From positions 187-24,186 of the forward strand of contig CAUTVM010000007.1 of NCBI GenBank assembly GCA_963541855.1: a stretch of DNA of 24,000 nt, in the 5' to 3' direction. A program made the translations under genes and the position numbers. This document shows positions 3,749-23,308 of this stretch, piece after piece. How positions within the stretch are numbered: position 1 is the first letter of the stretch; the number at the start of each line of letters is the position of its first letter. Source of the stretch: an uncultured Erysipelotrichaceae bacterium. GTDB taxonomy: Bacteria; Bacillota_I; Bacilli_A; Erysipelotrichales; Erysipelotrichaceae. The notes beneath the pieces are model-generated. The model ran no database searches and had not been told where the DNA came from. It saw only the letters and a program-made list of their open reading frames with translations.

Positions 3749-4900
3749 TCACTTTTTGGCTTGCGCATATACGGCTTGCGCCACGACATCCGCCACATGT
3801 TTATCCAACGGTGACGGCAGGATATTCACCGATGAAAGTTCTGTATCCGGAATCATGGAAGCAATCGCATATGCGGCCGCAATTTCCATCGCATCGGTAA
3901 TTTTTGCCGCACGCGCCTGCAGAACACCTTTAAAAATACCCGGAAAAACCAGAACATTATTGATCTGATTGGGATAATCACTGCGGCCGGTACCGACAAC
4001 TTTTGCGCCGCCTTTCAGCGCTTCGTCAGGATCAATTTCCGGCTCCGGATTAGCCAATGCAAATACGATTCCATCTTTCATGAGCGAAACCATTTCAGCA
4101 CTTAGAAGATGACCTTTGGAAACACCGATAAACGCATCCGCATCAACCAATGCTTCCGGCAAGTGTCCCTTACATCCGCCGCGATTGGTGCGCATGGCCA
4201 GTTCTTTCTGCACCGGATTCAATGCCTGATCCTGCGCATCTAAAATGCCGTTACGATCACACAGGATCAGATTATATATACCCATTTTTAGCAAAAGATC
4301 GGCAATGGCGCATCCGGCCGCTCCCGCGCCGTTGATCACAACCGTCATATGATCCATGCTCTTTTTCGTTACCTTACATGCATTCAACAAAGCCGCCGCC
4401 ACGACAATCGCCGTACCATGTTGATCATCATGGAAAACCGGAATATCCAGCGCTTTGCGCAAACGCCTTTCAATCTCAAAACACCGCGGAGCGGCAATGT
4501 CTTCCAGATTGATGCCGCCGAAATTCTTCGCTAAGCGCGTAATGATATCAACTATTTCATCTGTGCTTTTAGAATCAATGCAAAGCGGAATCGCATCGAC
4601 ATCCCCAAACGCCTTGAACAGTGCGCACTTTCCTTCCATAACCGGCATTCCTGCCGCCGGGCCGATATCCCCAAGCCCCAAAACCGCCGTACCATCCGTA
4701 ATCACCGCAACCAAATGTCCCCGACGCGTCAGCGTAAAAGACAGCTCTTCATTCTTTTCAATCTGCCGACACGCTTCCGCTACACCGGGCGTATACAAAA
4801 GACTGAGATCTTCCCTGGTTTTAATCGGCATTCGACAAACAACTTCAATCTTCCCTTGCAGTTTTTCATGCAGTTTCAGTGAATCTTCATATACTCCCAT
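3749..4900 (-). CDS. NAD(P)-dependent malic enzyme (short, YtsJ/MaeA-type)
   Basis: 'DLSLLYTPGVAEAC', the 'VVINGAGAAG' Rossmann motif and 'VFHDDQHGTA' are present. I moved the start to the ATG at 4900 (MGVYEDSLKLHEK..., which aligns with malic-enzyme N-termini). That start has an upstream GAAAGGGA RBS and avoids overlap with fumC, unlike the track start at 4954. Confidence 0.9.
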   Translation of the reverse strand: MGVYEDSLKLHEKLQGKIEVVCRMPIKTREDLSLLYTPGVAEACRQIEKNEELSFTLTRRGHLVAVITDGTAVLGLGDIGPAAGMPVMEGKCALFKAFGDVDAIPLCIDSKSTDEIVDIITRLAKNFGGINLEDIAAPRCFEIERRLRKALDIPVFHDDQHGTAIVVAAALLNACKVTKKSMDHMTVVINGAGAAGCAIADLLLKMGIYNLILCDRNGILDAQDQALNPVQKELAMRTNRGGCKGHLPEALVDADAFIGVSKGHLLSAEMVSLMKDGIVFALANPEPEIDPDEALKGGAKVVGTGRSDYPNQINNVLVFPGIFKGVLQARAAKITDAMEIAAAYAIASMIPDTELSSVNILPSPLDKHVADVVAQAVYAQAKK

Positions 4901-4913
4901 TTTTTGTCCCTTT

Positions 4914-6290
4914 CTATATCGCCTTTTCAGGATCGCATACCTGATCAAATTCATCAGCCGTCATATAACCCGATTGTATGGCCGCTTCTTTTAAGGTCCA
5001 TTTATTTTGATGCGCCAGCTGCGCAATCTGTGCCGCCTTTTCATAACCGATGGCCGGCGATAAAAGCGTCGACAACATCAGCGAGCGATGCAGATTTTCA
5101 CACATCTGCTCCTTGTTGACTTCCAATCCTTCCAAAAGATGGATGCGAAAGCTGTCCATGGATTGTGCCAACAGCCGCATGGACTGCAGAAAATTATATG
5201 CTGTCACCGGGAAAAATACACACAGCTCAAATTGCCCCTGACTGGCCGCAAAGCTGATTGACGCGTCATTGCCGGCAATCTGTACGGCCACCTGCGTAAC
5301 TTGTTCACACTGCGTCGGATTGACCTTGCCGGGCATGATGCTGGATCCCGGTTCATTGGCAGGCAGAATGAGTTCATTCAAACCACAGCGCGGGCCGCTG
5401 GCAGCTAAGCGGATATCGTTTGCCATCTTGAACATATCCATGGCCAGAGCCTTGAGCGCCCCATGCGTCACCACGATCTCATCCAGCGAAGTCAATGCGT
5501 GAAATTTATTTTTCCCCGGCACAAAGGCGATATGCATCTGCTCTTGCAAAGCACGACAGACCTCGCTGTCAAATCCTTTGGGCGCATTTAAACCCGTACC
5601 GACCGCCGTGGCGCCGATCGCCAGTTCTTTCAGATAATCCATATTCTGCCTTAACAGCTTCTCATCCTGTTCCAATGAAAAGCGATATCCGGATAATTCT
5701 TGTGAAAAGCGCAATGGAACCGCGTCCATCATATGTGTGCGCCCGGCTTTCATAATTCCCTGAAACTGTTTTTCTTTCCGCAAAAAAGTATCTTTTAATC
5801 GCTGTAAGCTAGGCAACAGTGAAGTTTCAAGCGCACTTACAAAAGCAATATGCATGGCACTGGGAAAAGTATCATTGCTGGATTGTGACGCATTGACATC
5901 ATCATTTGGATGCAATCCCTTTGCATAATGAGCAATCACCTCATTGACATTCATATTCGTCTGCGTACCCGAACCGGTTTGAAAAACGACAAGCGGAAAT
6001 TCATCATCCAGACGACCATCTAAAATCGCATCACATGCGGCTATAATCGCATCTTGTTTTTTTTGCGTTATGCATGCAGGCCTTAATTGATGATTGGCTT
6101 TGGCGCATGCTTTTTTTAATTGGGCAAAAGCATAGATGATCTCCATCGGCATACGCTCCTGCGGCTGTCCAATCAAAAAATTTTCAAACGAACGCTGTGT
6201 CTGGGCGCCCCAAAGGTGTTCAAGCGGAACGCGCACTTCGCCAAGACTGTCGCGTTCCATACGAAACTGATTATCGTGCATATTTTCCAT
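4914..6290 (-). CDS. fumC: Class II fumarate hydratase
   Basis: The signature 'GSSIMPGKVNPTQCEQ' is the fumarase variant of the GSxxMxxKxN loop. Also present: 'WGAQTQRSFENF', 'QTGSGTQTNMNVNE' and 'SQSSNDTFPSAMH'. The start could be the ATG at 6290 or at 6281. Confidence 0.9.
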   Translation of the reverse strand: MENMHDNQFRMERDSLGEVRVPLEHLWGAQTQRSFENFLIGQPQERMPMEIIYAFAQLKKACAKANHQLRPACITQKKQDAIIAACDAILDGRLDDEFPLVVFQTGSGTQTNMNVNEVIAHYAKGLHPNDDVNASQSSNDTFPSAMHIAFVSALETSLLPSLQRLKDTFLRKEKQFQGIMKAGRTHMMDAVPLRFSQELSGYRFSLEQDEKLLRQNMDYLKELAIGATAVGTGLNAPKGFDSEVCRALQEQMHIAFVPGKNKFHALTSLDEIVVTHGALKALAMDMFKMANDIRLAASGPRCGLNELILPANEPGSSIMPGKVNPTQCEQVTQVAVQIAGNDASISFAASQGQFELCVFFPVTAYNFLQSMRLLAQSMDSFRIHLLEGLEVNKEQMCENLHRSLMLSTLLSPAIGYEKAAQIAQLAHQNKWTLKEAAIQSGYMTADEFDQVCDPEKAI

Positions 6291-7710
6291 CTTGAATCAT
6301 GGTCTCCATACCGGCAATGCCCGGTTCGCTCAAGGCATAAGGATCAAAAATGACATCCAGTTCTTCTTTCGTCAACAACTGATCCCGCAAAATCAAGTCG
6401 CGCACATTCGCTCCCGTTTTGATCGCTTCTTTCGCAAGAGAAGCCGCTTTGGTATAGCCGACATAAGGGCAGATGGCAGTAATGATGCCGACCGAATGAT
6501 CGACCAGCTCTTGGCAATGTTCCACATTCGCTTCAATGCCCACAATACAGTTATCCACGAAAGTTTGAATGACATGCTCCAGCTGCTCAATGGAATGAAA
6601 CAGATTATAAAAGATAACCGGTTCAAAGGCGTTCAATTCCAATTGCCCGGCTTCGGCGGCCATCGTGATGGTCAAATCATTTCCGATCACATTGAATGCC
6701 ACCTGATTGACAACTTCCGGAATAACCGGATTGACTTTCCCGGGCATGATACTGGAACCATTCTGCTTTGCCGGCAGATGGATTTCATTCAGCCCGCACC
6801 TTGGCCCACAGCTCATCAGCCGTAAATCATTGGCTATCTTGGAAAGATTGACCGCACAAGTCTTGGTTATGCCGGATACCGCCGCATAACCATCCAGATT
6901 CTGCGTCGCGTCAATCAGATCTTTGGCCTGATGCATCTGCATTCCGGAAATAAGCGAAATATTTTCGGCAACTTTCTTCAAGTATTGCACATCCGCATTT
7001 AATCCTGTCCCGATCGCCGTACCGCCGATATTCAATGAACGCATTTCATCCTGCGCTTGCATAAAGCGGTCAATGTCGCGCTCGATCGCCATGGCATAAG
7101 CATGAAACTCCTGTCCTAAGCGAATCGGCACCGCATCCTGCAGCTGCGTGCGCCCCATTTTAATAACGTGATCAAATTCTTCCGCCTTTTGCAATAATGC
7201 CACATGCAGGCGTTTCAGCTGCGCTGTTGTTTTCACCAGCAGTTTCAAAGCCGTCAGCTTTCCGCATGAAGGAAAAATATCATTTGTCGATTGCCCGAAA
7301 TTCACATGATCATTGGGATGTACCGGATCATATGTCCCTTTCTTTCCGCCCAATATTTCATTGGCCAGATTAGCAATTACCTCATTGGCATTCATATTCA
7401 TCGAGGTTCCTGCTCCCCCTTGAATCGGATCGACAATAAACTGATCATGATATTTCCCGGCGATGATCTGATCGCATGCCTCAATGATCGCGCAACAGCG
7501 TTTCTCATCCAGCCGCCTGACCTGATAATTCGTCACGGCGCACGCTTTCTTGATCTGGGCAATAGAGACGATCATCTCCGTCGGATAACGCAAGCCCGTA
7601 ATCGTAAAATTTTCATAAGCCCGCAATGTCTGCACGCCGTAATAAGCATCAATCGGTACTTCTTTCTCGCCGATGGAATCCTTTTCCAGGCGAAAGCGTT
7701 CCTGCTTCAT
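6271..7710 (-). CDS. aspA: Aspartate ammonia-lyase
   Basis: The signature 'GSSIMPGKVNPVIPEVVNQV' is the aspartase variant. Also present: 'GGAGTSMNMNANE' and 'GQSTNDIFPS'. 479 aa. The 3' end overlaps the fumC start. Confidence 0.9.
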   Translation of the reverse strand: MKQERFRLEKDSIGEKEVPIDAYYGVQTLRAYENFTITGLRYPTEMIVSIAQIKKACAVTNYQVRRLDEKRCCAIIEACDQIIAGKYHDQFIVDPIQGGAGTSMNMNANEVIANLANEILGGKKGTYDPVHPNDHVNFGQSTNDIFPSCGKLTALKLLVKTTAQLKRLHVALLQKAEEFDHVIKMGRTQLQDAVPIRLGQEFHAYAMAIERDIDRFMQAQDEMRSLNIGGTAIGTGLNADVQYLKKVAENISLISGMQMHQAKDLIDATQNLDGYAAVSGITKTCAVNLSKIANDLRLMSCGPRCGLNEIHLPAKQNGSSIMPGKVNPVIPEVVNQVAFNVIGNDLTITMAAEAGQLELNAFEPVIFYNLFHSIEQLEHVIQTFVDNCIVGIEANVEHCQELVDHSVGIITAICPYVGYTKAASLAKEAIKTGANVRDLILRDQLLTKEELDVIFDPYALSEPGIAGMETMIQDGKYAR

Positions 7711-7713
7711 GCC

Positions 7714-8811
7714 CTACTTTTCCTCCTCCAGAATAAATCCGAACGGATGACGCGGATGGACGCAGGACAACAGAATATCTTCATGCGCCTTGAGATGGCC
7801 GACATAATTATATGTATCGTCCGCTTCAATCGTACTTTGAATCACTAAAACCTCAGCCGCGTATTTTTTATAATTCGCGTTGACAATCAATACATCGCCT
7901 TTTTCAAAAGTCTTCCGTCCATGCGGCCGCGGCGTAATTTTTTCATTCTGATAAGCAATACGAGGATAAGAGGAACGCAGCATGATTTCATTTTCACCAC
8001 GATTTACATGAATATCATCTTTTAAAATCCTCTTTTCCAGTTCCGTTGTTTCTTTATCTGTTTCTACTTTGAACTTGACGAAATCATAGAATGCATGCCC
8101 CATCGCTTCCAATTCCCGATCATCCGCAATGGCGTTTCCAATCAGGACATCATGAACATATCCAAGCGCAAATGTATGCCGCGCTTGCAAATCAATCGGC
8201 AGATAACGATGCATTTCCAGCGTCGGCAGATGCGGGCAATAAGACCATGGCCCATAGGTGTGCTCTTTCTGGCTGGATACAAAACTGGCATTTAAAAGAC
8301 CCGTCTTTTGATAGCGGCCCATCAGCTCTTCATAACGTTTCAGGCTCATGGCCGTATAGCGCTGTGGATAAAAATTCGCACACATGCACATGCGATCCTT
8401 ATTCGCCCCGGCCGCCAGCAGATTCTCCATATCAATATCCGTGCTGGAATTATACTCAATCTTGATATCATATGGATTATAAGACAGCTGTACATTTTCT
8501 ATTTCTGAAAAGCGGCCATCCAGACGGATAATATCCACACCGATTTCATGAAAAATCGAAAGATCTTTTGGCGAGGCGCCAAGTTTGGAAAAAACCACAG
8601 GATTGGTATCGGCACTGACAATAAAACCTTTCTCATGCGCAAAGCGGCAAAATTTCTGAAATCGGTCTTTCATCTCTTCCCTTGTTTCGTTTGTCGAAAT
8701 AAAGCAGGTAAAAACACGTGTGAAGCCATATCCGGCCGCTTTGGTCAAATAAGATTTCCATTCTTCTTCCGTACACTGCTCCGGATAAACCGAAATTCCA
8801 AGACGTTTCAT
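7714..8811 (-). CDS. DUF871 / MupG-like protein (putative 6-phospho-beta-glycosidase)
   Basis: 365 aa. The N-terminus 'MKRLGISVYPE...GFTRVFTCF' and the overall size match my recollection of the DUF871 family, which includes the S. aureus 6-phospho-N-acetylmuramidase MupG. The assignment comes from memory of the family pattern, not from a search. Confidence 0.65.
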   Translation of the reverse strand: MKRLGISVYPEQCTEEEWKSYLTKAAGYGFTRVFTCFISTNETREEMKDRFQKFCRFAHEKGFIVSADTNPVVFSKLGASPKDLSIFHEIGVDIIRLDGRFSEIENVQLSYNPYDIKIEYNSSTDIDMENLLAAGANKDRMCMCANFYPQRYTAMSLKRYEELMGRYQKTGLLNASFVSSQKEHTYGPWSYCPHLPTLEMHRYLPIDLQARHTFALGYVHDVLIGNAIADDRELEAMGHAFYDFVKFKVETDKETTELEKRILKDDIHVNRGENEIMLRSSYPRIAYQNEKITPRPHGRKTFEKGDVLIVNANYKKYAAEVLVIQSTIEADDTYNYVGHLKAHEDILLSCVHPRHPFGFILEEEK

Positions 8812-9551
8812 TTTTCTGTTCTCTCCATTTCTTTTTTCAATTCCCTGACTTGGTTTTGATCCACGACTTCATATGCACCATCTTTGTAAGTCGCGTAAGA
8901 TATGCCATTATTTTCTCCGGTCGGATCATGGAAGTATGTTTTACAGCTGGAATGCAGCTGACATACGCCCGTCTTTTGCAAAATAAGCGCCGCGTTGCAT
9001 GGCCGCACCCCTCCGCCGGCCAGAATTTCAATCTGCGTTCCATATTGCGCCTGCAAATAACGCAAATGATTGATGCCATGTTCCGCCGTAGCGCACAAAC
9101 CACTTGTCAAAACACGATCCGCGCCAAGAGAAATAAGCTGCTTTATACCCTCTTCCATATCATTGAGGCAGTCAAACGCGCGATGAAAAACCGCCGTCTT
9201 TCCATAGGTATGAATCAAGTTGATCATCCGTCCGCTCGCTTCCACATCTATCGTAAAATCCGCATGCAAAAAACCGAAAGCAATCCCGGCGGCATCCTGC
9301 TTTAAAAACAACTCCGCCTCCGCGAACATCGTTTCCTGATCCTGTTGATCATACTGAAAGCCGGAGCCGCGCGGACGAACCATGCATATAATCGGAAGAC
9401 CGCATGTTTTAGCCTTCATAAACATTCCCATGCCCGGCGTCAGACCGCCGGCGCTGAGCGCGCTGTTCAGCTCCACACGATCCCCACCTCCCGCTTTGGC
9501 CGCCAGCACGTCTCCATAGCTGCCGCAACACACTTCTAAAATCGTTTTCAT
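8808..9551 (-). CDS. cutC: CutC family protein (TIM-barrel, annotated as copper homeostasis protein)
   Basis: 'LEVCCGSYGDVLAAKAGGGDRVELNSALSAGGLTP' matches the CutC N-terminal pattern (E. coli 'LEICCYS...GADRVELC...GGLTPS'). I moved the start to the ATG at 9551 (MKTILEVCC), which makes an ATGA overlap with the upstream stop. The 27-codon extension in the track start (9632) lies inside the M20 gene. Confidence 0.85.
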   Translation of the reverse strand: MKTILEVCCGSYGDVLAAKAGGGDRVELNSALSAGGLTPGMGMFMKAKTCGLPIICMVRPRGSGFQYDQQDQETMFAEAELFLKQDAAGIAFGFLHADFTIDVEASGRMINLIHTYGKTAVFHRAFDCLNDMEEGIKQLISLGADRVLTSGLCATAEHGINHLRYLQAQYGTQIEILAGGGVRPCNAALILQKTGVCQLHSSCKTYFHDPTGENNGISYATYKDGAYEVVDQNQVRELKKEMERTEK

Positions 9552-13692: not shown

Positions 13693-13707
13693 TGCGTGTC
13701 CTTATGC

Positions 13708-13738
13708 AAAAGGCCTGCAAAACAAATGCAGGCCTCCC
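13708..13738 (-). other. Strong RNA hairpin immediately 3' of the TGA of the GrdB-like gene (intra-operon attenuator/stabiliser or candidate SECIS)
   Basis: A perfect 9-bp stem, AGGCCUGCA (13735..13727) with UGCAGGCCU (13719..13711), encloses the loop UUUGUUU. Three G.U pairs can extend it (GGG 13738..13736 with UUU 13710..13708). Only UUUU follows before GCAUAAGG. Confidence 0.7.
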
Positions 13739-13740
13739 TT

Positions 13741-14268
13741 TCATTCGTAACAGACTTCTTTCTGAATTCTTTCGCAATCCGCGCTTTTACTGTACATTGC
13801 CTGCAACAGACTGCATAGATTTTCGATTGACCCGCTCAGGCCTGTCCCGCCTTTTTTCGGCATTCTGACAATCGGAACTTTCTTGGCATATTCCGCAATG
13901 ACGTCTTTATTCTCTTCCGACATCATCGCCACCGCCTTGATATTCGTCTTATCAATAATCACCGCTGCCGTCTTCGCCGCCATCTCTGCATAATCCGGAA
14001 AATTAAAGCAGGGACCGCAAACGGCAAAATCCGGATTCAGTTTTTTGACCATGGCCGCCAGCTTGGTGACGACTTCTTCTTTATTTTCTTTGTAAAATTC
14101 ATTGCCGCAATACAATGTTGCGACAACTTCCGCCTGAATCGCATCAAAATTCGGCTGGAGCATCAAACTGGAACCGATGCCGCCCCGCTGGGCATTCAAG
14201 CCCACATGCGGATTGCTTTTGCCGCCGGCTCCGGCAAGACCCTGATCAAATATCAGTACGATTTTCAT
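13741..14268 (-). CDS. Small protein homologous to the N-terminal region of glycine/sarcosine/betaine reductase component B (GrdB-like), with a CGPC motif
   Basis: The following match my recollection of GrdB N-termini ('VVHYINQFFAGIGGEEKA', 'AEVVATVICGD', 'NPDLFIAGPAFNAGRYG'): 'MKIVLIFDQGLAGAGGKSNP', 'AEVVATLYCGNEFYKEN', 'VKKLNPDFAVCGPCFNFPDY'. At 175 aa it is much shorter than GrdB. Its function is unknown. Confidence 0.5.
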   Translation of the reverse strand: MKIVLIFDQGLAGAGGKSNPHVGLNAQRGGIGSSLMLQPNFDAIQAEVVATLYCGNEFYKENKEEVVTKLAAMVKKLNPDFAVCGPCFNFPDYAEMAAKTAAVIIDKTNIKAVAMMSEENKDVIAEYAKKVPIVRMPKKGGTGLSGSIENLCSLLQAMYSKSADCERIQKEVCYE

Positions 14269-14271
14269 GGC

Positions 14272-15636
14272 TTAATCTAAGCTCAGATCATCAAAGCTGA
14301 GTTTATCCAGATCGTCCTTGTCTTTTGTTTCCGCATTCTTCTCTTCTTCCAGATATTTCGTATCAAGAGATTTAAAGAACGGATAATAAATCAGAATATT
14401 CATGGCCAATAAAATGAACTGTACCATTGCGCCGGTCCATGACCCTGTAATCAGCCAGCCGGAGAAGCCGATCGGACATGTCCAAGGCAAGACTGCTCCG
14501 GAAGTAATCGGCATGACATGCATAATGGTAAATAGATAGGCGACAACTGTATTTAATACCGGCGTCAGGATGAACGGAATGACCATCACCGGGTTCAAAA
14601 CGATCGGCAAACCGAAGATGATCGGTTCATTGATACCGAAGATACCTGCCGGAAGTGATAATCTTCCCAGCATCTTCATCCGTTTGCTCTTGGCAATGAA
14701 GCTCATCATCAGCACAAGACCGAGCGTTGAACCGCCGCCGCCGAAGTTGCAGAAGAAATCCGAGAAACCGGCCGTAAAGATATTCTTCATCGGTAATCCG
14801 GCTGCCATCGCATCAAAGTTCTCCTGTGTAAGCGCCTTGGTAATCGGGGCAAAGACCGTGTTGGTAACGGCCGGACCGTTGATACCGAAGAACCATAACA
14901 AGGTGCTCAAGAACTGATAAAGAACTTCGAACCATGCGAAACGACCAAGGCCGACCAACGGTGCCTGTAAAATTTCATAGATAAAGTTATGCGCATATTC
15001 ATAGGATGTGTGGGAGAAGATGATCGCCAATATAAATGCCACCAGCATCGCAATTCCGGAAGGAATCAAAGCGCCGAAGCTTTCCGCAACTGCCGGCGGT
15101 ACACCCTCCGGAAGTTTGATGACCAATTTCTTTTTAATCGCCCAGGCAAAGATACGCACGGAAACCAAAGCGGTAATCATCGCCAAAAACATTCCTGCGG
15201 TACCGAAATTGCGAAGCGCAAAACCGCCGAATGTGCGGCCCGCCTCATTCACATATTCCGGATGTGACTGTGGCGCCAGTATCAAAAAGCTGACCAAAGC
15301 CGTAATTGCGCCGCCGACCTTATTATCCAGTCCCAGCTCCCGGGAATACGCATAGCCGATCCCGAATACCGCCATCAGCGAAATGCAGTCGAAACCGACG
15401 GTTGTCACGCGGTCAAATGCCGCTTCCCACCCTTCGCCTGCAAAGCTGGCAATCAGCTCGCTCCAATTGGGAATCGGAAAGTTTGTAATAATCAGGAAAA
15501 TCGACGCGATAATAACGATTGGTGTCGTAATCAGAAAACCGTCACGAATCGCCACCAGAACCTTATTTCTGGACAGCGCATTCGCCGCCGGAACAAGCAA
15601 TTCTTCAAGCTTATTCGTCTTTTTCTTTTCAGGCAT
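14272..15636 (-). CDS. PTS lactose/cellobiose-family EIIC permease
   Basis: 454-aa polytopic membrane protein with a typical CelB/ChbC/LicC-type sequence ('FGINGP', 'GINEPIIFGLPIVLNP'). Confidence 0.95.
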   Translation of the reverse strand: MPEKKKTNKLEELLVPAANALSRNKVLVAIRDGFLITTPIVIIASIFLIITNFPIPNWSELIASFAGEGWEAAFDRVTTVGFDCISLMAVFGIGYAYSRELGLDNKVGGAITALVSFLILAPQSHPEYVNEAGRTFGGFALRNFGTAGMFLAMITALVSVRIFAWAIKKKLVIKLPEGVPPAVAESFGALIPSGIAMLVAFILAIIFSHTSYEYAHNFIYEILQAPLVGLGRFAWFEVLYQFLSTLLWFFGINGPAVTNTVFAPITKALTQENFDAMAAGLPMKNIFTAGFSDFFCNFGGGGSTLGLVLMMSFIAKSKRMKMLGRLSLPAGIFGINEPIIFGLPIVLNPVMVIPFILTPVLNTVVAYLFTIMHVMPITSGAVLPWTCPIGFSGWLITGSWTGAMVQFILLAMNILIYYPFFKSLDTKYLEEEKNAETKDKDDLDKLSFDDLSLD

Positions 15637-15955
15637 GTTTTTTCCCCTCCTTATATGCCATCATGGCTGCCTTTAAAACTCTTTCCCCATCAACTACTCC
15701 GTAGTCCTTTGAATCAATGACCATAACCGGGCAATCCTTGCCATACCGTTCCGTGACTTTGTCAAGCAAATACTTGACTTGCGGCCCCAGCAAAATCACG
15801 TCCGGATGATAGGTTGTCACAATTGTGTCCATCTCCGCGTCCGAAAATGCCTTGACCTCAATCGGAAGATGATTTTCTTCCGCAACTTTCTGCATACGGC
15901 TGGCAAGAAAGCTGGTCGACATTCCGGCATTGCAAAAAAGATAAAACCGTTTCAT
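15629..15955 (-). CDS. PTS lactose/cellobiose-family EIIB
   Basis: 108 aa with the active-site Cys loop 'YLFCNAGMSTSFL' (compare ChbB 'LFCSAGMSTS'). It overlaps the EIIC start by 8 nt. Confidence 0.9.
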   Translation of the reverse strand: MKRFYLFCNAGMSTSFLASRMQKVAEENHLPIEVKAFSDAEMDTIVTTYHPDVILLGPQVKYLLDKVTERYGKDCPVMVIDSKDYGVVDGERVLKAAMMAYKEGKKHA

Positions 15956-16033
15956 TCAAATGAAAATCCCCTTTCTTTTTTATTCTCTGTCTTCAATCTA
16001 ACACATGCGCTTCATCAGCGTTCCCAATGCTGC

Positions 16034-16050
16034 TTCCGCACAGTGCGGAA
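16034..16050 (-). other. Short hairpin in the 105-nt EIIA-EIIB spacer
   Basis: The minus-strand RNA has UUCCGCA-CUG-UGCGGAA, a 7-bp stem with a 3-nt loop, about 10 nt after the EIIA TAA stop. No U-tract follows. Confidence 0.4.
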
Positions 16051-16060
16051 AAGAAAACGG

Positions 16061-16375
16061 TTACTTAGCCTGCAGTTTTTTATAAACAGCAATCAATTCA
16101 TCCGCGATCACCTTCAAGGTTTCCGCACCAAGCAATTGGTCTTCCGCATGCATCAACAATAATGACAGCTGTACATTATCCCCGGCCGCTTCTTTCTGAA
16201 TCAATTGCCCATGTACTTTATGACCTTCAACAAAGACCGCCATTCCTTCTTTCATCAAGCGCTCGGCTTTTTCAAAATCATATTCCCGCGCCGCGCCCAT
16301 CGCTTCAATGTAATCGCTCTTTGCCTCCCCCGTATACGAAATGATCTGAAAACAAATTTGCTCCATCGCTTCCAT
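16061..16375 (-). CDS. PTS lactose/cellobiose-family EIIA
   Basis: 104-aa helical protein with the phosphorylatable His in 'LLLMHAEDQLL' (compare ChbA 'HAQDHLM'). Confidence 0.9.
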   Translation of the reverse strand: MEAMEQICFQIISYTGEAKSDYIEAMGAAREYDFEKAERLMKEGMAVFVEGHKVHGQLIQKEAAGDNVQLSLLLMHAEDQLLGAETLKVIADELIAVYKKLQAK

Positions 16376-16389
16376 GTTTTTTCCTCCTT

Positions 16390-16977
16390 CTAAAACACCG
16401 CGTTCTCACGCTTTATCCATATGACTCTCGTCTTTGCAAAACGATCATGCAAGGCCTGATGAAAGGGCGTAAATGAAGCCATCAACACCGACAAGACAAG
16501 CAGGACCATGCTTGCATAAGACAGTATTTTCGCCACTGTCTCATTCGTCATTAACGTCAACAAGGATCCGATCGGATTTCCCGTCATTAACGATATGGTT
16601 TCTAAAAACAGCAAGATGACGATCTGACGCAAGGCAAGGCTCTTAGCGTCAACTGCACTTCCATTTGCCTGCACAATGGCAATGGACAAAAGCCGCTTCC
16701 CCGGTGTCTGCCCTGGCCATAGAAATAAAGGAAGCACATAAAAATAGGCTATCAGAATGAGAATCGCCAGCACAGCTGCCCAGATGCCCGAAGGGCCTAA
16801 GCCGACAATATCCAGATTGACCTTAGTTTCGCCGCTTTTTAAATTCCACATCAAAGCCGCCGGAGCCATGGATACAACCCCGCTCAAATACCAGTCCAGA
16901 ATAAATGCGGCCCAACGTTTCCACATCGGCGCGTCATTCTGTTTTATCGACATTTCTTTTTTGCTCTTCCTGCTCAT
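16390..16977 (-). CDS. RDD family membrane protein
   Basis: 195 aa with three or four hydrophobic segments. The RDD-type residues are 'WKRWAAFILDW' and C-terminal 'LHDRFAKTRVI'. Its start forms an ATGA overlap with the regulator stop (16974-16977). Confidence 0.8.
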   Translation of the reverse strand: MSRKSKKEMSIKQNDAPMWKRWAAFILDWYLSGVVSMAPAALMWNLKSGETKVNLDIVGLGPSGIWAAVLAILILIAYFYVLPLFLWPGQTPGKRLLSIAIVQANGSAVDAKSLALRQIVILLFLETISLMTGNPIGSLLTLMTNETVAKILSYASMVLLVLSVLMASFTPFHQALHDRFAKTRVIWIKRENAVF

Positions 16978-18917
16978 ATGTTCTCCTGTTCCGCCGTCAC
17001 AAAGCGAATCAATTCGGCCATGGATTTTGTTTCATGCAATTGCGCCAGCAGCTTGGGATGTTCGCTCACCGCGCTTAACCAATCCCAGAACAGGCGGAAT
17101 GCTTCGCGATCTTCCTGTCGAATCGCCAATAAAAAGATGGTTTTTACTTCATATTCTCCCCAGCGAACCGGCTCTTGCAATAAGGCGATGCTGATCGTGG
17201 AGTGAATGGCGGAAAAATGAAGCGGATGGGGTACCGCAAAGCCCGGTGCAAAACCGGTTGAAGAAAGGGTTTCCCGCGCAATGACCGAATCATAAAAACC
17301 TTTCTTTACACATTTTTTCTCTTCCATTTCCCGACACAGAAAAGACAGTATTTCCTGCATGCTGGACAGGTTGACATGGCGATAGAAAAATTCTTCTTTC
17401 AGCATCTTCTTCAAAGTTCGTGAAAAATCATCCCGCAGACGCTTGTGATCCAGATCATTCAAGGCCTTGAAAATTTTAAATTCATCATTTTCAGCCATAA
17501 ACATGGAAATCTGCACGGTCGGTATGGCTAAATCATGCTGCAGAGGAACCGTCGTCAAAATCAGATCCGGAGCCAAACCCATGATCTGCCGCTTTTCAAA
17601 ATACTGCAAAGTCGCATCAATCGTCAGCCGGTCAGAAAAATGATCGGTGATTTTGTTTTGACATAAAGTGCTCAGGCCGACATTGCTGGGCTGGATTAAA
17701 ACCGTATGATATTGACGATTGAGATTCAGCCGATCATATGCCGCCCCAAGGTGAAGAGCTAAAAAGCCAAGCTCCTCTTCCGAAATATGCATTCCCTTTT
17801 CTTCAATGATATTGCCGACAAAAACCGCCATTTCAAAGATCAGCGGATAATGGCTTTTGATTTCTTTGAGAAATACATTTTCCAGCTTCACATTCTGCTG
17901 TATGCGATCCAATAAATTGGTGATATGTAAGTTCAGTCCCACCTTCAGATTTTCATCCCGCCTGAAATCAATTGCATAGGTGGCCTCAATGCGATCAATG
18001 ATCTCATCAATCAACTCATTCATCGCGAAAGCCGCTTCACTTTCATTGCGTACTTTCTGCGCCCGTTTGCCCATCAGAAGAACGGCCAGCAAAATACATT
18101 CATTATCGTTATAGGCAAGCCCCAGCTTTTGGGAAACAATTTCATAAAAACGCCGCGATATCTGATATTCTTTTTTTTCGTGAATGCGGGCGACATCATA
18201 CTTGACATTTTGAACCAGATTCTGCTTCATCAGACGATCCAATGAAACCCCGATATGAATCATCAGAAAGGGGAAAATATCCTCGCGTATTTTATAATCA
18301 TAGGATTGCAAAACGGCTTCCAAAATCTCTTTGATTTCCAGCAGGTTGATATGTTCATACATCTTATCCAGCTCATTGAGGTTCAAGAAATTGCCTGCGG
18401 TCTCATTTGCAAGCATATCTTTATATAGACGGCGCTTGCTCTGTTCACTGCCCAACAAATAAATCGTGCCGTTTTTACGCTGCAATTTCAGATCTTCATA
18501 GACACCTGAAAGCATGGAGCGAATCTGTGCCAGGTCATTATCAATCGTATTGCTGCTGATATACAGATCGGCGGACACCTGCATCAGGTTTAACGATTTT
18601 GCGTCCGTCAATAATTTCAAAAGAATATATTTCTGACGCTCGGAAGCCGTCTGGGGAAGAGGGGAAGAAGTTTTAAGCGGATGCAGACCTGTCCCTTCTT
18701 TCATCCGATAGCCGTTGCGCACGCTGGCCTCCAGACGAGATGGATATATTTCCCGAATCAAAGCGATATCATGACGTACCGTCCGGCTTGTAACGCCCAA
18801 CGTTTCGGCAATTTCCGTGCCCGTTTTCCAGCCTCCCGACTGCAAAATATGAATAATCTGTTCTTGTCGTTTACTGATCACCTCTTCATCATAGTACGAC
18901 TCTCTTTTCCCCGCCAT
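16974..18917 (-). CDS. PRD-domain PTS regulator (LicR/MtlR/ManR-like: two HTH domains, two PRDs, an EIIB-like domain and an EIIA(Mtl/Fru)-like domain)
   Basis: The N-terminal HTH is 'TGTEIAETLGVTSRTVRHDIALI', with a second winged HTH around 'LMQVSADLYISSNTIDNDL'. PRD histidines are in 'LMIHIGVSLDRL', 'LNLHITNLLDRI' and 'LALHLGAAYDRL'. The C-terminal EIIA_2-like motif is 'GFAVPHPLH'. There is no AAA+/sigma-54 module. Confidence 0.9.
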   Translation of the reverse strand: MAGKRESYYDEEVISKRQEQIIHILQSGGWKTGTEIAETLGVTSRTVRHDIALIREIYPSRLEASVRNGYRMKEGTGLHPLKTSSPLPQTASERQKYILLKLLTDAKSLNLMQVSADLYISSNTIDNDLAQIRSMLSGVYEDLKLQRKNGTIYLLGSEQSKRRLYKDMLANETAGNFLNLNELDKMYEHINLLEIKEILEAVLQSYDYKIREDIFPFLMIHIGVSLDRLMKQNLVQNVKYDVARIHEKKEYQISRRFYEIVSQKLGLAYNDNECILLAVLLMGKRAQKVRNESEAAFAMNELIDEIIDRIEATYAIDFRRDENLKVGLNLHITNLLDRIQQNVKLENVFLKEIKSHYPLIFEMAVFVGNIIEEKGMHISEEELGFLALHLGAAYDRLNLNRQYHTVLIQPSNVGLSTLCQNKITDHFSDRLTIDATLQYFEKRQIMGLAPDLILTTVPLQHDLAIPTVQISMFMAENDEFKIFKALNDLDHKRLRDDFSRTLKKMLKEEFFYRHVNLSSMQEILSFLCREMEEKKCVKKGFYDSVIARETLSSTGFAPGFAVPHPLHFSAIHSTISIALLQEPVRWGEYEVKTIFLLAIRQEDREAFRLFWDWLSAVSEHPKLLAQLHETKSMAELIRFVTAEQENI

Positions 18918-18949: not shown

Positions 18950-18984
18950 AACATAAAAAAAGAACAGGGACTATGCCTTGTTCT
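18950..18984 (-). terminator. Rho-independent terminator of the tilS-hpt-ftsH unit
   Basis: The minus-strand RNA reads AGAACAAGG-CAUAGU-CCCUGUUCU, a 9-bp stem with one mismatch, followed by UUUUUUAUG. It overlaps the ftsH TAG stop. Confidence 0.65.
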
Positions 18985-23208: not shown

Positions 23209-23252
23209 CTTATTGATCCTCCTGCTTGTTTCTTTGCCAAAGCAGCCGCAAA

Positions 23253-23292
23253 TTAAAAAAATGCGGCAGAAGAATATATCCTCTTGCCGCCA
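23253..23292 (-). terminator. Rho-independent terminator after the flavoprotein gene
   Basis: The minus-strand RNA has GCGGCAAGAG (loop GAUAUAUU) CUUCUGCCGC followed by AUUUUUUUAAUU. It lies about 20 nt downstream of the stop at 23309. Confidence 0.7.
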
Positions 23293-23308
23293 TTTTTGTG
23301 CAATATGC

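What the first reader, a model, noticed from the sequence alone, without database searches (positions are those of the whole stretch)
3749..18917. 15-kb co-directional locus joining a cellobiose-family PTS to glycosylasparaginase, peptidases and an aspartate-to-pyruvate branch: candidate PTS-dependent Asn-linked glycan/glycopeptide catabolic system
Seen in sequence: fifteen minus-strand genes run with only three gaps longer than 15 nt and many overlapping stop/start codons. In transcription order they are a PRD regulator, RDD protein, EIIA, EIIB, EIIC, GrdB-like protein, M42 pseudo-paralog, M42 aminopeptidase, glycosylasparaginase (AGA), M20 dipeptidase, CutC, DUF871/MupG-like protein, AspA, FumC and malic enzyme. 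Established knowledge: AGA cleaves the GlcNAc-Asn amide only when the Asn alpha-amino and alpha-carboxyl groups are free. Lactose/cellobiose-family PTS systems deliver 6-phospho-beta-glycosides. The characterised DUF871 member, MupG, is a 6-phospho-glycosidase. AspA, FumC and malic enzyme convert aspartate to fumarate, malate and then pyruvate. E. coli also carries M42 genes (frvX, sgcX, ypdE) inside PTS operons whose substrates are unknown. Inference: the gene set forms a self-consistent route. A glyco-asparagine or short N-glycopeptide is taken up and phosphorylated. The M42 and M20 enzymes trim the flanking residues. AGA releases aspartate and ammonia, with DUF871 possibly cleaving a phospho-sugar. 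The aspartate skeleton is then converted to pyruvate. I know of no characterised PTS pathway for GlcNAc-Asn with this composition. The window contains no nagA/nagB and no secreted endoglycosidase, so the sugar branch must be completed elsewhere.
Basis: partly seen in the sequence, partly recalled or inferred. Interest (0 to 1): 0.85.

Follow-up and report, generated by a model that had tools for sequence, protein, structure and literature searches.

The report
Expanded PTS operon for Asn-linked GlcNAc
This is a real 15-gene operon that most likely imports and burns the sugar-asparagine stubs left over from digested glycoproteins; its core matches a system already characterised in Enterococcus faecalis, so the new parts are the extra conserved genes, above all CutC.

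Summary
The 15 minus-strand genes at 3749-18917 exist as described, and every family call was confirmed. The same 15-gene order recurs in a relative whose AGA is 80% identical. The core order, PRD regulator-(RDD)-EIIA-EIIB-EIIC-GrdB-like-AGA-M20-CutC, recurs across 80 species-level loci from several Bacillota orders.

The core is not new. The E. faecalis ega locus is a published PTS-dependent GlcNAc-Asn pathway containing a glycosylasparaginase, Lac/Cel EIIB and EIIC, a GrdB-like protein and a dipeptidase. L. casei alf-2 is a related route without a PTS.

What is new is the expansion:
- its own EIIA and a PRD activator;
- an RDD protein;
- an active M42 peptidase paired with a conserved dead M42 partner, which co-varies with a distinct EIIC lineage;
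- a lid-truncated PepV-like M20;
- a GH170 (DUF871) enzyme;
- an AspA-FumC-malic enzyme tail;
- CutC.

CutC sits beside AGA in 74 of 80 Bacillota loci and in two Bacteroidota N-glycan loci. That gives a testable lead to the function of this unexplained family. Verdict: new variant of a known kind, moderate interest.

The parts
16974..18917 (-). PRD-type transcriptional activator (HTH_11/Mga HTH, two PRD stretches, C-terminal EIIA-2 domain). It takes the place of the GntR regulator of ega-type loci.
   Evidence: Pfam. Homologue found next to the PTS genes in 48 of 80 loci.
16390..16977 (-). RDD-family small membrane protein with three hydrophobic segments. Role unknown, possibly a transporter accessory.
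   Evidence: Pfam. Hydropathy. Found in 13-20 loci and in Anaerococcus L093 and L094, always beside the PTS genes.
16061..16375 (-). Lactose/cellobiose-family PTS EIIA. E. faecalis ega has no EIIA of its own and borrows CelA1.
   Evidence: Pfam PF02255. NCBIfam. Literature.
16034..16050 (.). Perfect 17-bp palindrome TTCCGCACTGTGCGGAA in the 105-nt EIIA-EIIB spacer. Candidate operator or RNA hairpin.
   Evidence: Invariant in L006, L086 and L088 although the proteins are only about 80-95% identical. Absent from the other loci.
15629..15955 (-). Lactose/cellobiose-family PTS EIIB.
   Evidence: Pfam PF02302. 43% identical to the EIIB of the E. gilvus ega-type locus.
14272..15636 (-). Lactose/cellobiose-family PTS EIIC, the permease. 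It belongs to the EIIC sub-lineage that travels with the M42 pair.
   Evidence: TIGR00410, 386 bits, cutoff 236. 45-49% identical to ega-type EIIC. EIICs linked to M42 average 69.5% identity among themselves and 46% to the rest.
13741..14268 (-). GrdB-related protein without selenocysteine (175 aa), always placed directly after EIIC. Function unknown. It has an invariant Gly-rich loop and a CGPC motif.
   Evidence: NF041545, 225 bits, cutoff 175. Present in 68 of 80 loci. Invariant residues. AlphaFold model with pLDDT 92 and no solved fold match above TM 0.5. The counterpart is described in ega.
13711..13735 (-). Conserved hairpin GGCCTGCA-N7-TGCAGGCC followed by TTTTG, between the GrdB-like gene and M42a. 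Candidate partial terminator or mRNA-stabilising element separating the transport block from the enzyme block.
   Evidence: The stem is invariant and the loop varies in L086 and L006.
12670..13692 (-). M42-fold pseudo-peptidase. All metal ligands and the catalytic Glu are replaced. Probable non-catalytic partner of M42b.
   Evidence: The same losses occur in all 14 orthologues from Erysipelotrichales and Granulicatella.
11609..12673 (-). M42 (TET-type) aminopeptidase with a complete dinuclear metal site.
   Evidence: Pfam, 275 bits. PDB alignment. All 7 key residues kept in all orthologues.
10656..11621 (-). Cytoplasmic glycosylasparaginase, N4-(beta-GlcNAc)-L-asparaginase type.
   Evidence: Best PDB match is Flavobacterium GA. 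W8, T149, R177 and D180 are kept. No signal peptide. 52-53% identical to the AGA of ega-type loci.
9548..10666 (-). Sapep/PepV-like M20 dipeptidase. Metal ligands are intact, but about 105 residues of the lid domain are missing.
   Evidence: The short form (median 376 aa) lies next to AGA in 72-73 of 80 loci.
8808..9551 (-). CutC-family TIM-barrel protein. Enzyme of unknown reaction, tightly linked to AGA.
   Evidence: Cross-phylum adjacency to AGA.
7714..8811 (-). DUF871/MupG-family (GH170) putative 6-phospho-beta-N-acetylhexosaminidase.
   Evidence: Pfam MupG_N plus MupG_C. 250 bits to 1X7F. Present in 34 of 80 loci. ChbE precedent.
6271..7710 (-). Aspartate ammonia-lyase (AspA).
   Evidence: NF008909, 688 bits, cutoff 510. 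TQLQDA and GSSIMPGKVN motifs. Starts 3 nt after DUF871.
4914..6290 (-). Class II fumarate hydratase (FumC-like).
   Evidence: TIGR00979, 624 bits, just under the cutoff of 665. Fumarase-type His in GRTHMMDA.
3749..4900 (-). Short-type NAD(P)-dependent malic enzyme. An alternative upstream start lies at 4954.
   Evidence: Pfam malic plus Malic_M. NCBIfam. Start as called in L088.

Best explanation
The locus is one operon, or a few tightly coupled transcription units. It is an expanded relative of the E. faecalis ega system and lets a host-associated Erysipelotrichaceae bacterium, probably from the human mouth, feed on the Asn-linked GlcNAc core left after glycoprotein breakdown.

Proposed route; every step is inferred from homology and gene linkage, none was tested by experiment:
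1. The Lac/Cel-family PTS (its own EIIA, EIIB and EIIC, possibly helped by the RDD and GrdB-like proteins) takes up GlcNAc-Asn. It probably also takes up chitobiosyl-Asn and short peptides carrying Asn(GlcNAc). It phosphorylates the sugar at O6.
2. In the cytoplasm the active M42 aminopeptidase, probably in a mixed oligomer with its dead M42 partner, removes N-terminal residues. The lid-truncated PepV-like M20 removes the C-terminal residue. This frees the alpha-amino and alpha-carboxyl groups that glycosylasparaginase requires.
3. The GH170 (DUF871) enzyme removes a 6-phospho-GlcNAc from a disaccharide stub if one is present.
4. The cytoplasmic glycosylasparaginase cleaves the GlcNAc(-6-P)-Asn amide, giving L-aspartate and a glycosylamine.
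5. CutC acts on a product of this step. The most likely substrate is a phosphorylated sugar derivative.
6. AspA, FumC and malic enzyme convert aspartate to fumarate plus NH3, then malate, then pyruvate.
7. GlcNAc-6-P is finished by nagA and nagB encoded elsewhere.

The PRD/EIIA-domain activator ties expression to PTS phosphorylation state.
For: - Family assignments.
- AGA-type active site, cytoplasmic location, closest solved structure.
- Thousands of relatives named N4-(beta-GlcNAc)-L-asparaginase.
- Conservation of the gene set with varied order across several Bacillota orders.
- Full 15-gene synteny in L086 and L088.
- Experimental precedent for PTS uptake and catabolism of GlcNAc-Asn by the homologous core in E. 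faecalis. Annotated ega-type loci are homologous to the window proteins.
- The pepV-asnA2 linkage, the requirement for free alpha groups, and an Asp-disposal enzyme (AsdA) in L. casei alf-2.
- The GH170 enzyme ChbE is required for use of PTS-imported diacetylchitobiose.
- AspA starts 3 nt after DUF871, and FumC and ME follow with overlap or a 13-nt gap.
- AspA was inserted independently between M20 and CutC in Longicatena L080.
- nagB lies directly after the cluster in Allobaculum.
- AGA-CutC pairs sit inside Bacteroidota N-glycan loci with GH92, GH18, GH2, ROK kinase and NagB.
Against: - There is no experimental data for this organism.
- The Combret et al. paper itself was not readable here. 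Details of ega come from papers that cite it.
- Whether AGA accepts a 6-phosphorylated substrate is unknown to me.
- In L. casei, pepV was dispensable for growth on 6'FN-Asn, so the peptidase roles are unproven.
- The window encodes no endoglycosidase, nagA or nagB.
- DUF871 is present in only 34 of 80 loci and the M42 pair in 13 of 80, so they are accessory.
- The ME-fumarase-CutC operon without AGA in L098 shows that CutC need not be tied to the sugar branch.
- Promoter and terminator scans were no better than shuffles, so the transcription-unit structure is not established.
Confidence: 0.75

Rival explanations
1. Beta-aspartyl (isoaspartyl) peptide or plain asparagine/aspartate salvage. The Ntn-hydrolase acts as an isoaspartyl peptidase or L-asparaginase, M42 and M20 digest peptides, and AspA-FumC-ME burn the aspartate. 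The PTS and DUF871 serve an unrelated beta-glycoside such as chitobiose.
For: - Asparaginase_2 proteins include isoaspartyl peptidases, and the only NCBIfam hit is to beta-aspartyl-peptidase, at 112 bits against a cutoff of 567.
- Three peptidase-fold genes and an Asp-to-pyruvate branch are present.
- A GH170 enzyme plus a cellobiose-type PTS is a chitobiose system in L. paracasei.
Against: - The protein scores 170 bits to glycosylasparaginase and about 110 to isoaspartyl peptidases. It keeps the AGA-specific TW motif.
- AGA and the PTS genes stay together through many rearrangements and across orders.
- The homologous core is shown experimentally to use GlcNAc-Asn.
- In Bacteroidota, AGA-CutC sits in N-glycan loci.
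Confidence: 0.08
2. Peptidoglycan (muropeptide) recycling. The PTS imports a MurNAc/GlcNAc disaccharide, possibly with peptide attached. The MupG-like enzyme cleaves the 6-phospho-disaccharide, the peptidases degrade the stem peptide, and the Ntn-hydrolase releases D-iso-Asx cross-bridge residues.
For: - The only biochemically characterised DUF871 member, MupG, is a 6-phospho-N-acetylmuramidase (Pfam names).
- Peptidases are co-encoded.
Against: - DUF871 is accessory, present in 34 of 80 loci.
- No murQ, amidase or L,D-peptidase lies in the window.
- The EIIC is of the Lac/Cel family, not the glucose-family type of MurP (my own knowledge of MurP).
- AspA acts on L-aspartate, not D-Asp.
- The AGA-type active site argues against it.
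- The ega precedent argues against it.
Confidence: 0.04
3. A mosaic of functionally independent neighbours: a PTS block, a peptidase/AGA block and a housekeeping AspA-FumC-ME block. They happen to be packed together on the leading strand in this lineage.
For: - All genes from 3749 to 24000 are co-directional.
- FumC and ME are absent from the 80 comparison loci, and AspA is present in only one.
- A conserved hairpin separates the PTS block from the enzyme block.
Against: - Stop/start overlaps or 3-nt gaps link M42a through AspA, and FumC overlaps AspA by 20 nt.
- The PTS, GrdB-like, AGA, M20 and CutC genes stay linked across orders.
- AspA was recruited independently in L080.
- A different Asp-disposal enzyme (AsdA) is found in alf-2.
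- The full order is kept at 80% protein identity in L086.
Confidence: 0.08

Closest known systems
Enterococcus faecalis ega (enterococcal glycosylasparaginase) locus: Combret et al., Res Microbiol 175:104169, known here through PMC11549559, PMC11976118 and PMC12502629
   Same: PTS-dependent use of GlcNAc-L-Asn. Shared parts are the glycosylasparaginase (EgaG), Lac/Cel-family EIIB and EIIC, a GrdB-like 'putative oxidoreductase' and an M20 dipeptidase. Annotated ega-type loci in E. gilvus and L. curvatus are homologous to the window proteins: AGA 52-53%, EIIC 45-49%, EIIB 43%, GrdB-like 35%, M20 33-43%.
   Different: ega has a GntR repressor-type regulator, no EIIA of its own (it borrows CelA1) and a full-length Sapep dipeptidase. 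No RDD, M42 pair, CutC, GH170 or AspA-FumC-ME is reported for it. The window EIIC belongs to a separate sub-lineage, about 46% identical.
Lactobacillus casei alf-2 cluster for fucosyl-alpha-1,6-GlcNAc-Asn (Becerra et al. 2020, PMC6960285)
   Same: A cytoplasmic glycosylasparaginase (AsnA2) is genetically linked to a PepV-type M20 peptidase. A dedicated enzyme disposes of the released aspartate (AsdA).
   Different: Uptake is by an MFS permease, not a PTS. It needs a fucosidase (AlfC) and a GlcNAc kinase (SugK). Aspartate is decarboxylated rather than deaminated to fumarate. It has no CutC, M42, GrdB-like or GH170 gene.
Lacticaseibacillus paracasei chb cluster (cellobiose-type PTS plus the GH170 enzyme ChbE; PMC12791066), and S. 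aureus MurP-MupG
   Same: A DUF871/GH170 enzyme acts after a PTS on a 6-phospho-N-acetylhexosaminide. The window protein has both MupG domains.
   Different: Those systems handle plain disaccharides (diacetylchitobiose, MurNAc-GlcNAc) and contain no asparaginase or peptidases. The specificity of the window enzyme is untested.
E. coli PTS operons that carry an M42 peptidase gene (frvX, sgcX, ypdE); from my own knowledge, not tested here
   Same: An M42 aminopeptidase is co-encoded with PTS components. NCBIfam models for these E. coli aminopeptidases are the best M42 hits.
   Different: The PTS families differ (fructose-like and galactitol-like). Those operons have no AGA and their substrates are unknown. 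The window system pairs an active M42 with a dead one.
Bacteroidota N-glycan utilisation loci that contain an AGA-CutC pair (Hymenobacter tibetensis, Fulvitalea axinellae)
   Same: Glycosylasparaginase lies immediately upstream of CutC, in a sugar-catabolic context with NagB and ROK kinase.
   Different: AGA is secreted (Tat/Sec signal) while CutC is cytoplasmic. Transport is by SusC and MFS proteins, not a PTS. The partners are GH92, GH18 and GH2 glycosidases rather than peptidases.
Salmonella fra locus for fructose-asparagine; from my own knowledge, not tested here
   Same: Catabolism of a sugar-asparagine conjugate that releases aspartate and a sugar 6-phosphate.
   Different: The substrate is an Amadori compound. 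The enzymes are a periplasmic type II asparaginase, a kinase and a deglycase. There is no PTS and no Ntn-hydrolase.

Membership tests
ega-type PTS-dependent GlcNAc-Asn utilisation locus | Cytoplasmic glycosylasparaginase encoded in the locus | tested here: met
   52-53% identical to the AGA of the ega-type loci L091 and L092.
ega-type PTS-dependent GlcNAc-Asn utilisation locus | Lactose/cellobiose-family PTS EIIB and EIIC adjacent to the AGA gene | tested here: met
   EIIC is 45-49% and EIIB 43% identical to those of ega-type loci, but in a distinct sub-lineage.
ega-type PTS-dependent GlcNAc-Asn utilisation locus | GrdB-related 'putative oxidoreductase' gene next to EIIC | tested here: met
   NF041545, 225 bits, cutoff 175. 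35% identical to the L. curvatus copy. Described for ega.
ega-type PTS-dependent GlcNAc-Asn utilisation locus | Sapep/PepV-type M20 dipeptidase | tested here: met
   TIGR01887, 271 bits, cutoff 208. The window form lacks about 105 lid residues.
ega-type PTS-dependent GlcNAc-Asn utilisation locus | GntR-family regulator (LSA1692 subfamily) | tested here: not met
   The regulator here is of the HTH/Mga/PRD/EIIA-2 type. GntR is present in L091 and L092.
ega-type PTS-dependent GlcNAc-Asn utilisation locus | Growth on, and induction by, GlcNAc-L-Asn that depends on the locus | not testable with these tools
   Needs culture, mutants and RT-qPCR.
Glycosylasparaginase (EC 3.5.1.26) | Ntn-hydrolase autoprocessing site with a Thr nucleophile (HDT), a GRVGDSP motif that binds the Asp alpha-carboxyl and alpha-amino groups, and an N-terminal TW sugar-stacking motif | tested here: met
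   H147-D148-T149, R177 and D180, T7-W8. The PDB ranking puts GA above isoaspartyl peptidases, 170 against about 110 bits.
Glycosylasparaginase (EC 3.5.1.26) | Hydrolysis of GlcNAc-Asn or its 6-phosphate | not testable with these tools
   An enzyme assay is required.
M42 (TET) aminopeptidase | Dinuclear metal site (His, Asp, Glu, Asp, His) and catalytic Glu | tested here: met
   M42b (11609-12673) keeps all 7 residues in every orthologue.
M42 (TET) aminopeptidase | The same metal site in the upstream paralogue M42a (12670-13692) | tested here: not met
   In the window protein: His to Pro, bridging Asp to His, Glu-Glu to Ser-Met, His to Ala. Equivalent losses occur in all 14 orthologues. It has the fold of a family member but is not a peptidase.
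GH170 / MupG 6-phospho-N-acetylhexosaminidase | MupG_N TIM-barrel domain plus MupG_C domain | tested here: met
   244 and 93 bits. 250 bits to 1X7F.
GH170 / MupG 6-phospho-N-acetylhexosaminidase | Catalytic residues and 6-phospho-glycosidase activity | not tested
Activity needs an assay.
CutC 'copper homeostasis' protein | CutC TIM-barrel fold | tested here: met
   Pfam, 171 bits. AlphaFold model with pLDDT 95.6 and TM 0.9 to human and Shigella CutC.
CutC 'copper homeostasis' protein | Cys pair proposed as the Cu(I) site in human CutC (Cys31/Cys52; the site is recalled from my own knowledge of the 3IWP paper) | tested here: not met
   The second Cys is Asn in all 68 CutC proteins linked to AGA. 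The E. coli copper phenotype was reassigned to the sRNA MicL (PMC4102768).
Aspartate ammonia-lyase / class II fumarase | Score above the family cutoff, plus the discriminating residue in the GRT(Q/H) motif | tested here: met
   AspA: 688 bits, cutoff 510, TQLQDA. FumC: fumarase-type His in GRTHMMDA, but TIGR00979 gives 624 bits, below the cutoff of 665.
L. casei alf-2 type 6'FN-Asn cluster | AlfC alpha-L-fucosidase, AlfH MFS permease and SugK kinase | tested here: not met
   None of these families is present in the window.

The most novel reading that the evidence does not exclude
CutC, a TIM-barrel protein conserved from bacteria to humans whose 'copper homeostasis' label is doubtful, is an enzyme of N-glycan core catabolism that works directly after glycosylasparaginase. 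The most specific version is that it converts the phosphorylated glycosylamine released by AGA (1-amino-GlcNAc-6-P) into GlcNAc-6-P plus ammonia. That step is assumed to be spontaneous in lysosomes but is slow at cytoplasmic pH.

Support:
- CutC lies beside AGA in 74 of 80 Bacillota loci, including loci with no PTS.
- The same adjacency occurs in two Bacteroidota N-glycan loci.
- A ROK sugar kinase sits next to CutC wherever no PTS is present.
- The nearest non-CutC folds are all barrels that bind phosphorylated ligands.
- The CutC proteins share an invariant polar constellation, and one proposed copper-binding Cys is lost in all 68.

Against:
- An ME-fumarase-CutC operon exists without AGA.
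- ega and alf-2 work without an adjacent CutC.

A second, independent novel reading is that the EIIC lineage linked to M42 imports glycopeptides, which would make it the first PTS with a peptide-bearing substrate.
Probability: 0.22. Interest if true: 0.8.

Novelty: new variant of a known kind. Interest (0 to 1): 0.5.

Why it matters
Use of host N-glycan remnants is a colonisation and virulence trait. The E. faecalis paper's title ties GlcNAc-Asn use to infection.

This locus shows that the ega-type pathway is far more widespread than its one studied example. The scan found 298 relatives of AGA in species-level reference genomes, and the 80 examined include gut Lachnospiraceae, Erysipelotrichales, Granulicatella and Clostridium neonatale (Anaerococcus was found separately). 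It also exists in a much richer form than the version studied so far.

The expanded form gives a concrete candidate substrate class for several long-unexplained gene families that recur in PTS operons:
- M42 peptidases, as in E. coli frvX, sgcX and ypdE;
- GrdB-like proteins;
- RDD proteins;
- DUF7916;
- CutC.

It also offers a complete, testable carbon and nitrogen budget: the sugar goes to glycolysis, and aspartate goes to pyruvate plus NH3.

Tried and rejected
- **Source paper.** The primary ega paper (PMID 37977353) is not held. I relied on three papers that cite it.
- **E. faecalis locus.** The single genome-contig scan kept only the best 80 of 298 relatives, and E. faecalis was not among them. 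I used the annotated ega-type loci of E. gilvus and L. curvatus from the plasmid collection as proxies.
- **GrdB-like protein.** No sequence relative has a solved structure. A confident AlphaFold model found no fold match above TM 0.5, only generic alpha/beta hits to Rab GTPases. Its function stays open.
- **Promoter and terminator scan.** It found fewer promoter-like and about as many terminator-like sites as shuffled sequence, so it gives no transcription map.
- **RNA elements.** Rfam and tRNA scans of the window found nothing.
- **Palindrome.** The 17-bp palindrome occurs only in close relatives, so it is not a general operator of this cluster type.
- **Literature on CutC.** Searches linking CutC to glycosylasparaginase or to N-glycans found nothing relevant.
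- **Rejected readings.** Muropeptide recycling, isoaspartyl salvage and chance adjacency were each considered and judged unlikely; see the rival explanations.
- **Exact AspA product.** The look-up found no other contig.

Full report
**Observation**

The window carries 15 consecutive minus-strand ORFs between 3749 and 18917. In order they are: an HTH/Mga/PRD/EIIA-2 regulator, an RDD membrane protein, Lac/Cel-family EIIA, EIIB and EIIC, a GrdB-related protein without selenocysteine (NF041545, above its cutoff), two M42-fold proteins, an Asparaginase_2 Ntn-hydrolase, a Sapep/PepV-like M20 peptidase, CutC, a MupG/DUF871 protein, aspartate ammonia-lyase, a class II fumarase and a short malic enzyme.

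Two starts need correction. CutC begins at 9551, overlapping M20 by 4 nt. Malic enzyme most likely begins at 4900. With these starts the genes overlap or lie within 14 nt of each other, apart from a 105-nt EIIA-EIIB spacer and a 48-nt GrdB-like-M42a spacer.

Co-directionality is not informative by itself, since everything from 3749 to 24000 is on the minus strand. Upstream lie tilS-hprT-ftsH. Downstream lie a convergent DedA/VTT gene and a GT4 glycosyltransferase gene, then pepF.

**Is it more than adjacency?**

Yes. A contig 99% identical (L088) and a relative whose AGA is 80% identical (L086) carry the same 15 genes in the same order, behind ftsH.

A scan of one genome per species with an AGA alignment found 298 relatives, of which the best 80 loci were kept. 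tblastn of the window proteins against those 80 loci found:
- M20 in 73;
- CutC in 74;
- GrdB-like in 68;
- EIIC in 65, EIIB in 64, EIIA in 60;
- the PRD regulator in 48;
- DUF871 in 34;
- RDD in 13;
- the M42 pair in 13.

The loci come from Lachnospiraceae (Enterocloster, Hungatella, Lacrimispora), Peptacetobacter, Clostridium neonatale, Eubacterium multiforme, Erysipelotrichales and Granulicatella. Anaerococcus has the same set. Gene order differs between lineages while the gene set persists, which is the signature of functional coupling.

**The key enzyme**

The Asparaginase_2 protein scores 170 bits against Flavobacterium glycosylasparaginase and about 110 against isoaspartyl peptidases or L-asparaginases. 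It keeps the HDT autoprocessing and nucleophile site, the GRVGDSP motif that holds the substrate's alpha-carboxyl and alpha-amino groups, and the N-terminal Thr-Trp motif. It begins MYGMIATW, four residues before that Trp, so it has no signal peptide and is cytoplasmic. The Bacteroidota homologues, by contrast, carry Tat/Sec signals. Source databases name its close relatives N4-(beta-N-acetylglucosaminyl)-L-asparaginase.

**What is already known**

There is one: the E. faecalis ega locus (Combret et al., Res Microbiol 175:104169). The paper itself is not held, but three later papers describe it:
- ega encodes the glycosylasparaginase EgaG, the EIIB and EIIC of a Lac/Cel PTS, and a putative oxidoreductase related to GrdB that is a pseudogene in OG1RF. 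It also has a separately transcribed GntR regulator and a dipeptidase.
- The EIIA CelA1 serves this 'GlcNAc-L-Asn PTS'.

Annotated loci with exactly this layout are found in E. gilvus (GntR, Sapep dipeptidase, AGA, EIIB, EIIC, EIIA) and L. curvatus (AGA, GntR, GrdB-like, EIIC, Sapep). Their proteins are homologous to the window's: AGA 52-53%, EIIC 45-49%, EIIB 43%, GrdB-like 35%, M20 33-43%.

L. casei alf-2 is a version without a PTS. In that study AsnA2 was shown to be a glycosylasparaginase, pepV was found genetically linked to asnA2 across genomes, and AsdA disposes of the aspartate. So the core idea is established biology, and the window holds an expanded variant of it.

**What the expansion consists of**

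1. *Regulation and EIIA.* A PRD/EIIA-domain activator replaces GntR, and the locus has its own EIIA.

2. *The M42 pair.* M42b keeps all seven metal and catalytic residues. M42a has lost all of the ligands and the catalytic Glu. The same pattern holds in all 14 orthologous pairs from Erysipelotrichales and Granulicatella. M42a is therefore an old, conserved pseudo-enzyme, probably a structural partner in a TET-type oligomer (inference).

   The M42 pair co-varies with the transporter. EIICs in loci that carry M42 average 69.5% identity to each other but only 46% to EIICs of loci without M42 and to ega-type EIICs. AGA, in contrast, stays at 60-68% to the window across both groups. This fits a different substrate range for that PTS lineage, for example N-terminally extended glycopeptides (inference).

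3. *The M20 peptidase.* It keeps its metal ligands but lacks about 105 residues of the lid domain relative to Sapep. This short form, median 376 aa, is the one next to AGA in 72 loci.

4. *DUF871.* This family is now GH170. In L. paracasei the GH170 enzyme ChbE is required to use diacetylchitobiose imported by a cellobiose-type PTS. A role in removing a 6-phospho-GlcNAc from a chitobiosyl stub is therefore plausible.

5. *The aspartate branch.* AspA (688 bits against a cutoff of 510; TQLQDA), FumC (fumarase-type His in GRTHMMDA) and malic enzyme follow DUF871 after 3 nt, a 20-nt overlap and 13 nt respectively. Longicatena has independently placed an AspA between M20 and CutC. L. casei uses an aspartate decarboxylase instead. 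That makes three different solutions to the same problem of disposing of the released aspartate.

In Allobaculum, however, nagB directly follows the cluster.

**CutC**

CutC is the most tightly AGA-linked gene after M20. It is present in 74 of 80 loci, and three of the six exceptions are truncated contigs. This includes loci that contain only AGA-(M20)-CutC and no PTS.

The link crosses phyla. In Hymenobacter tibetensis, AGA and CutC overlap by 4 nt next to GH92, ROK kinase, NagB, an MFS transporter, GH18 and SusC. In Fulvitalea axinellae the order is AGA-CutC-GH2-CBM9-GH92. In both, AGA is secreted and CutC is cytoplasmic. In Globicatella a ROK kinase gene runs directly into CutC, opposite M20-AGA.

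Further points:
- The 68 CutC proteins linked to AGA share an invariant polar constellation: E6, C8, R25, E27, R59, R61, H123, R124, D127, R146, H200 and K204. One of the two Cys residues proposed as the copper site in the human protein is Asn in all of them.
- The E. coli copper phenotype has been reassigned to the sRNA MicL, which lies inside cutC.
- A confident model (pLDDT 95.6) matches CutC structures first. After those come thiamin-phosphate synthase, MJ1099 with PRPP, KDPGal aldolase, PdxS, ribulose-phosphate epimerase and ThiG, all barrels that bind phosphorylated ligands.

My working hypothesis is that CutC processes a phosphorylated sugar product of the AGA step, for example the glycosylamine 6-phosphate. 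One ME-class I fumarase-CutC operon without AGA cautions that CutC could instead belong to the C4-acid side. I found no open-access paper linking CutC and glycosylasparaginase.

**Things that stayed unexplained**

- The GrdB-like protein always follows EIIC. It has an invariant Gly-rich loop and a CGPC motif. A confident model has no solved structural relative.
- The RDD protein, the YitT/DUF2179 membrane protein (38 loci, not in the window) and DUF7916 recur without a known role. DUF7916 follows CutC in Granulicatella and occupies CutC's position in Anaerococcus.
- Two intergenic elements are conserved beyond the level of the flanking proteins among close relatives. One is a 17-bp palindrome at 16034-16050. 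The other is a hairpin with a T-tract at 13711-13735, whose stem is invariant while the loop varies. They may be an operator and a partial terminator. The generic promoter and terminator scan was uninformative.

**Verdict**

The best explanation, at confidence about 0.75, is an ega-like PTS-dependent pathway for Asn-linked GlcNAc glycoamino acids and probably short glycopeptides, with a built-in aspartate-to-pyruvate branch. Rivals are each at or below 0.1: isoaspartyl/Asn salvage with an unrelated PTS, muropeptide recycling, and a mosaic of unrelated neighbours.

It is a new variant of a known kind. Interest is moderate (0.5). It rests on the conserved but uncharacterised accessory genes, and especially on the cross-phylum AGA-CutC link.

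Noticed in passing
L095:5979-7717 (Hymenobacter tibetensis NZ_CP094672.1) and L096:5899-7765 (Fulvitalea axinellae NZ_AP025320.1): In Bacteroidota, glycosylasparaginase and CutC are adjacent inside N-glycan-type loci (4-nt overlap in Hymenobacter). The neighbours are GH92, GH18, GH2, ROK kinase, NagB and SusC. AGA has a Tat/Sec signal peptide and CutC has none.
   Followed up: partly
L098:5476-8735 (GCA_964370065.1): Malic enzyme, class I fumarase alpha and beta subunits and CutC form one overlapping operon, with no AGA within 8 kb. This echoes the window's AspA-FumC-ME tail and leaves open which branch CutC serves.
   Followed up: no
L097:4812-8738 (Globicatella sanguinis): A version without a PTS: M20-AGA lies divergent from ROK kinase-CutC, with ABC permeases and an AraC regulator nearby. 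A sugar kinase appears next to CutC where no PTS is present.
   Followed up: no
e.g. L010:12916-13788, L053:9004-9906, L071:12386-13264, L094:15538-16419: A YitT-family membrane protein with DUF2179 lies next to CutC or AGA in 38 of the 80 loci, across Lachnospiraceae and Erysipelotrichales. The window has none. Its role is unknown.
   Followed up: partly
L082:12854-13750 (Granulicatella elegans); L093:12634-13578 (Anaerococcus): A DUF7916 protein follows CutC in Granulicatella. In Anaerococcus it occupies the position after M20 where CutC would be.
   Followed up: no
window 16034-16050: The perfect 17-bp palindrome TTCCGCACTGTGCGGAA in the EIIA-EIIB spacer is invariant in the relatives L006, L086 and L088 but absent from all other loci. 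It may be an operator for the PRD activator or an RNA hairpin.
   Followed up: partly
window 13711-13735: The hairpin GGCCTGCA-N7-TGCAGGCC followed by TTTTG lies between the GrdB-like gene and M42a. Its stem is invariant and its loop varies in relatives about 80% identical. It looks like a partial terminator or a stabiliser between the transport and enzyme blocks.
   Followed up: partly
window about 18950-18985 (minus strand): A terminator-like hairpin GAACAAGG-CATAGT-CCCTGTTC followed by T7 overlaps the ftsH stop codon, about 35 nt upstream of the regulator's ATG. The operon therefore probably has its own promoter in a very short spacer.
   Followed up: no
window 13741-14268: The GrdB-like protein has an invariant D8-x-G-x-AG-x-GGK17 loop and a thioredoxin-like C84-G-P-C87 motif. 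A high-confidence model (pLDDT 92) has no solved structural relative.
   Followed up: partly
window 10656-11621: In every Bacillota AGA aligned here, six PTS-linked and one from a locus with no PTS genes nearby (L045), an Arg follows the sugar-stacking Trp (TWR, against TWN in Flavobacterium). They also share a C-terminal extension of about 45 residues. The Arg is a candidate 6-phosphate contact.
   Followed up: no
L055:11608-12324 and L032:11577-12293 (Allobaculum and a relative); L071:148-864, L056:139-852: A nagB-type glucosamine-6-phosphate deaminase gene lies directly after the cluster in Allobaculum and within about 4 kb in Thomasclavelia.
   Followed up: partly
window 22639-23370 and 23309-23998 (minus strand): Upstream of tilS lie an ORF with no Pfam match and the C-terminal part of a large FMN_bind/FAD_binding_2 flavoprotein (590 aa in L088), of the fumarate- or urocanate-reductase type. 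These genes were not examined further.
   Followed up: no
L093:13824-18513 (Anaerococcus): A second PRD regulator, EIIA, EIIB, a small unknown protein, a MupG-like gene and EIIC lie directly downstream of the AGA cluster. This resembles the L. paracasei chb layout.
   Followed up: no
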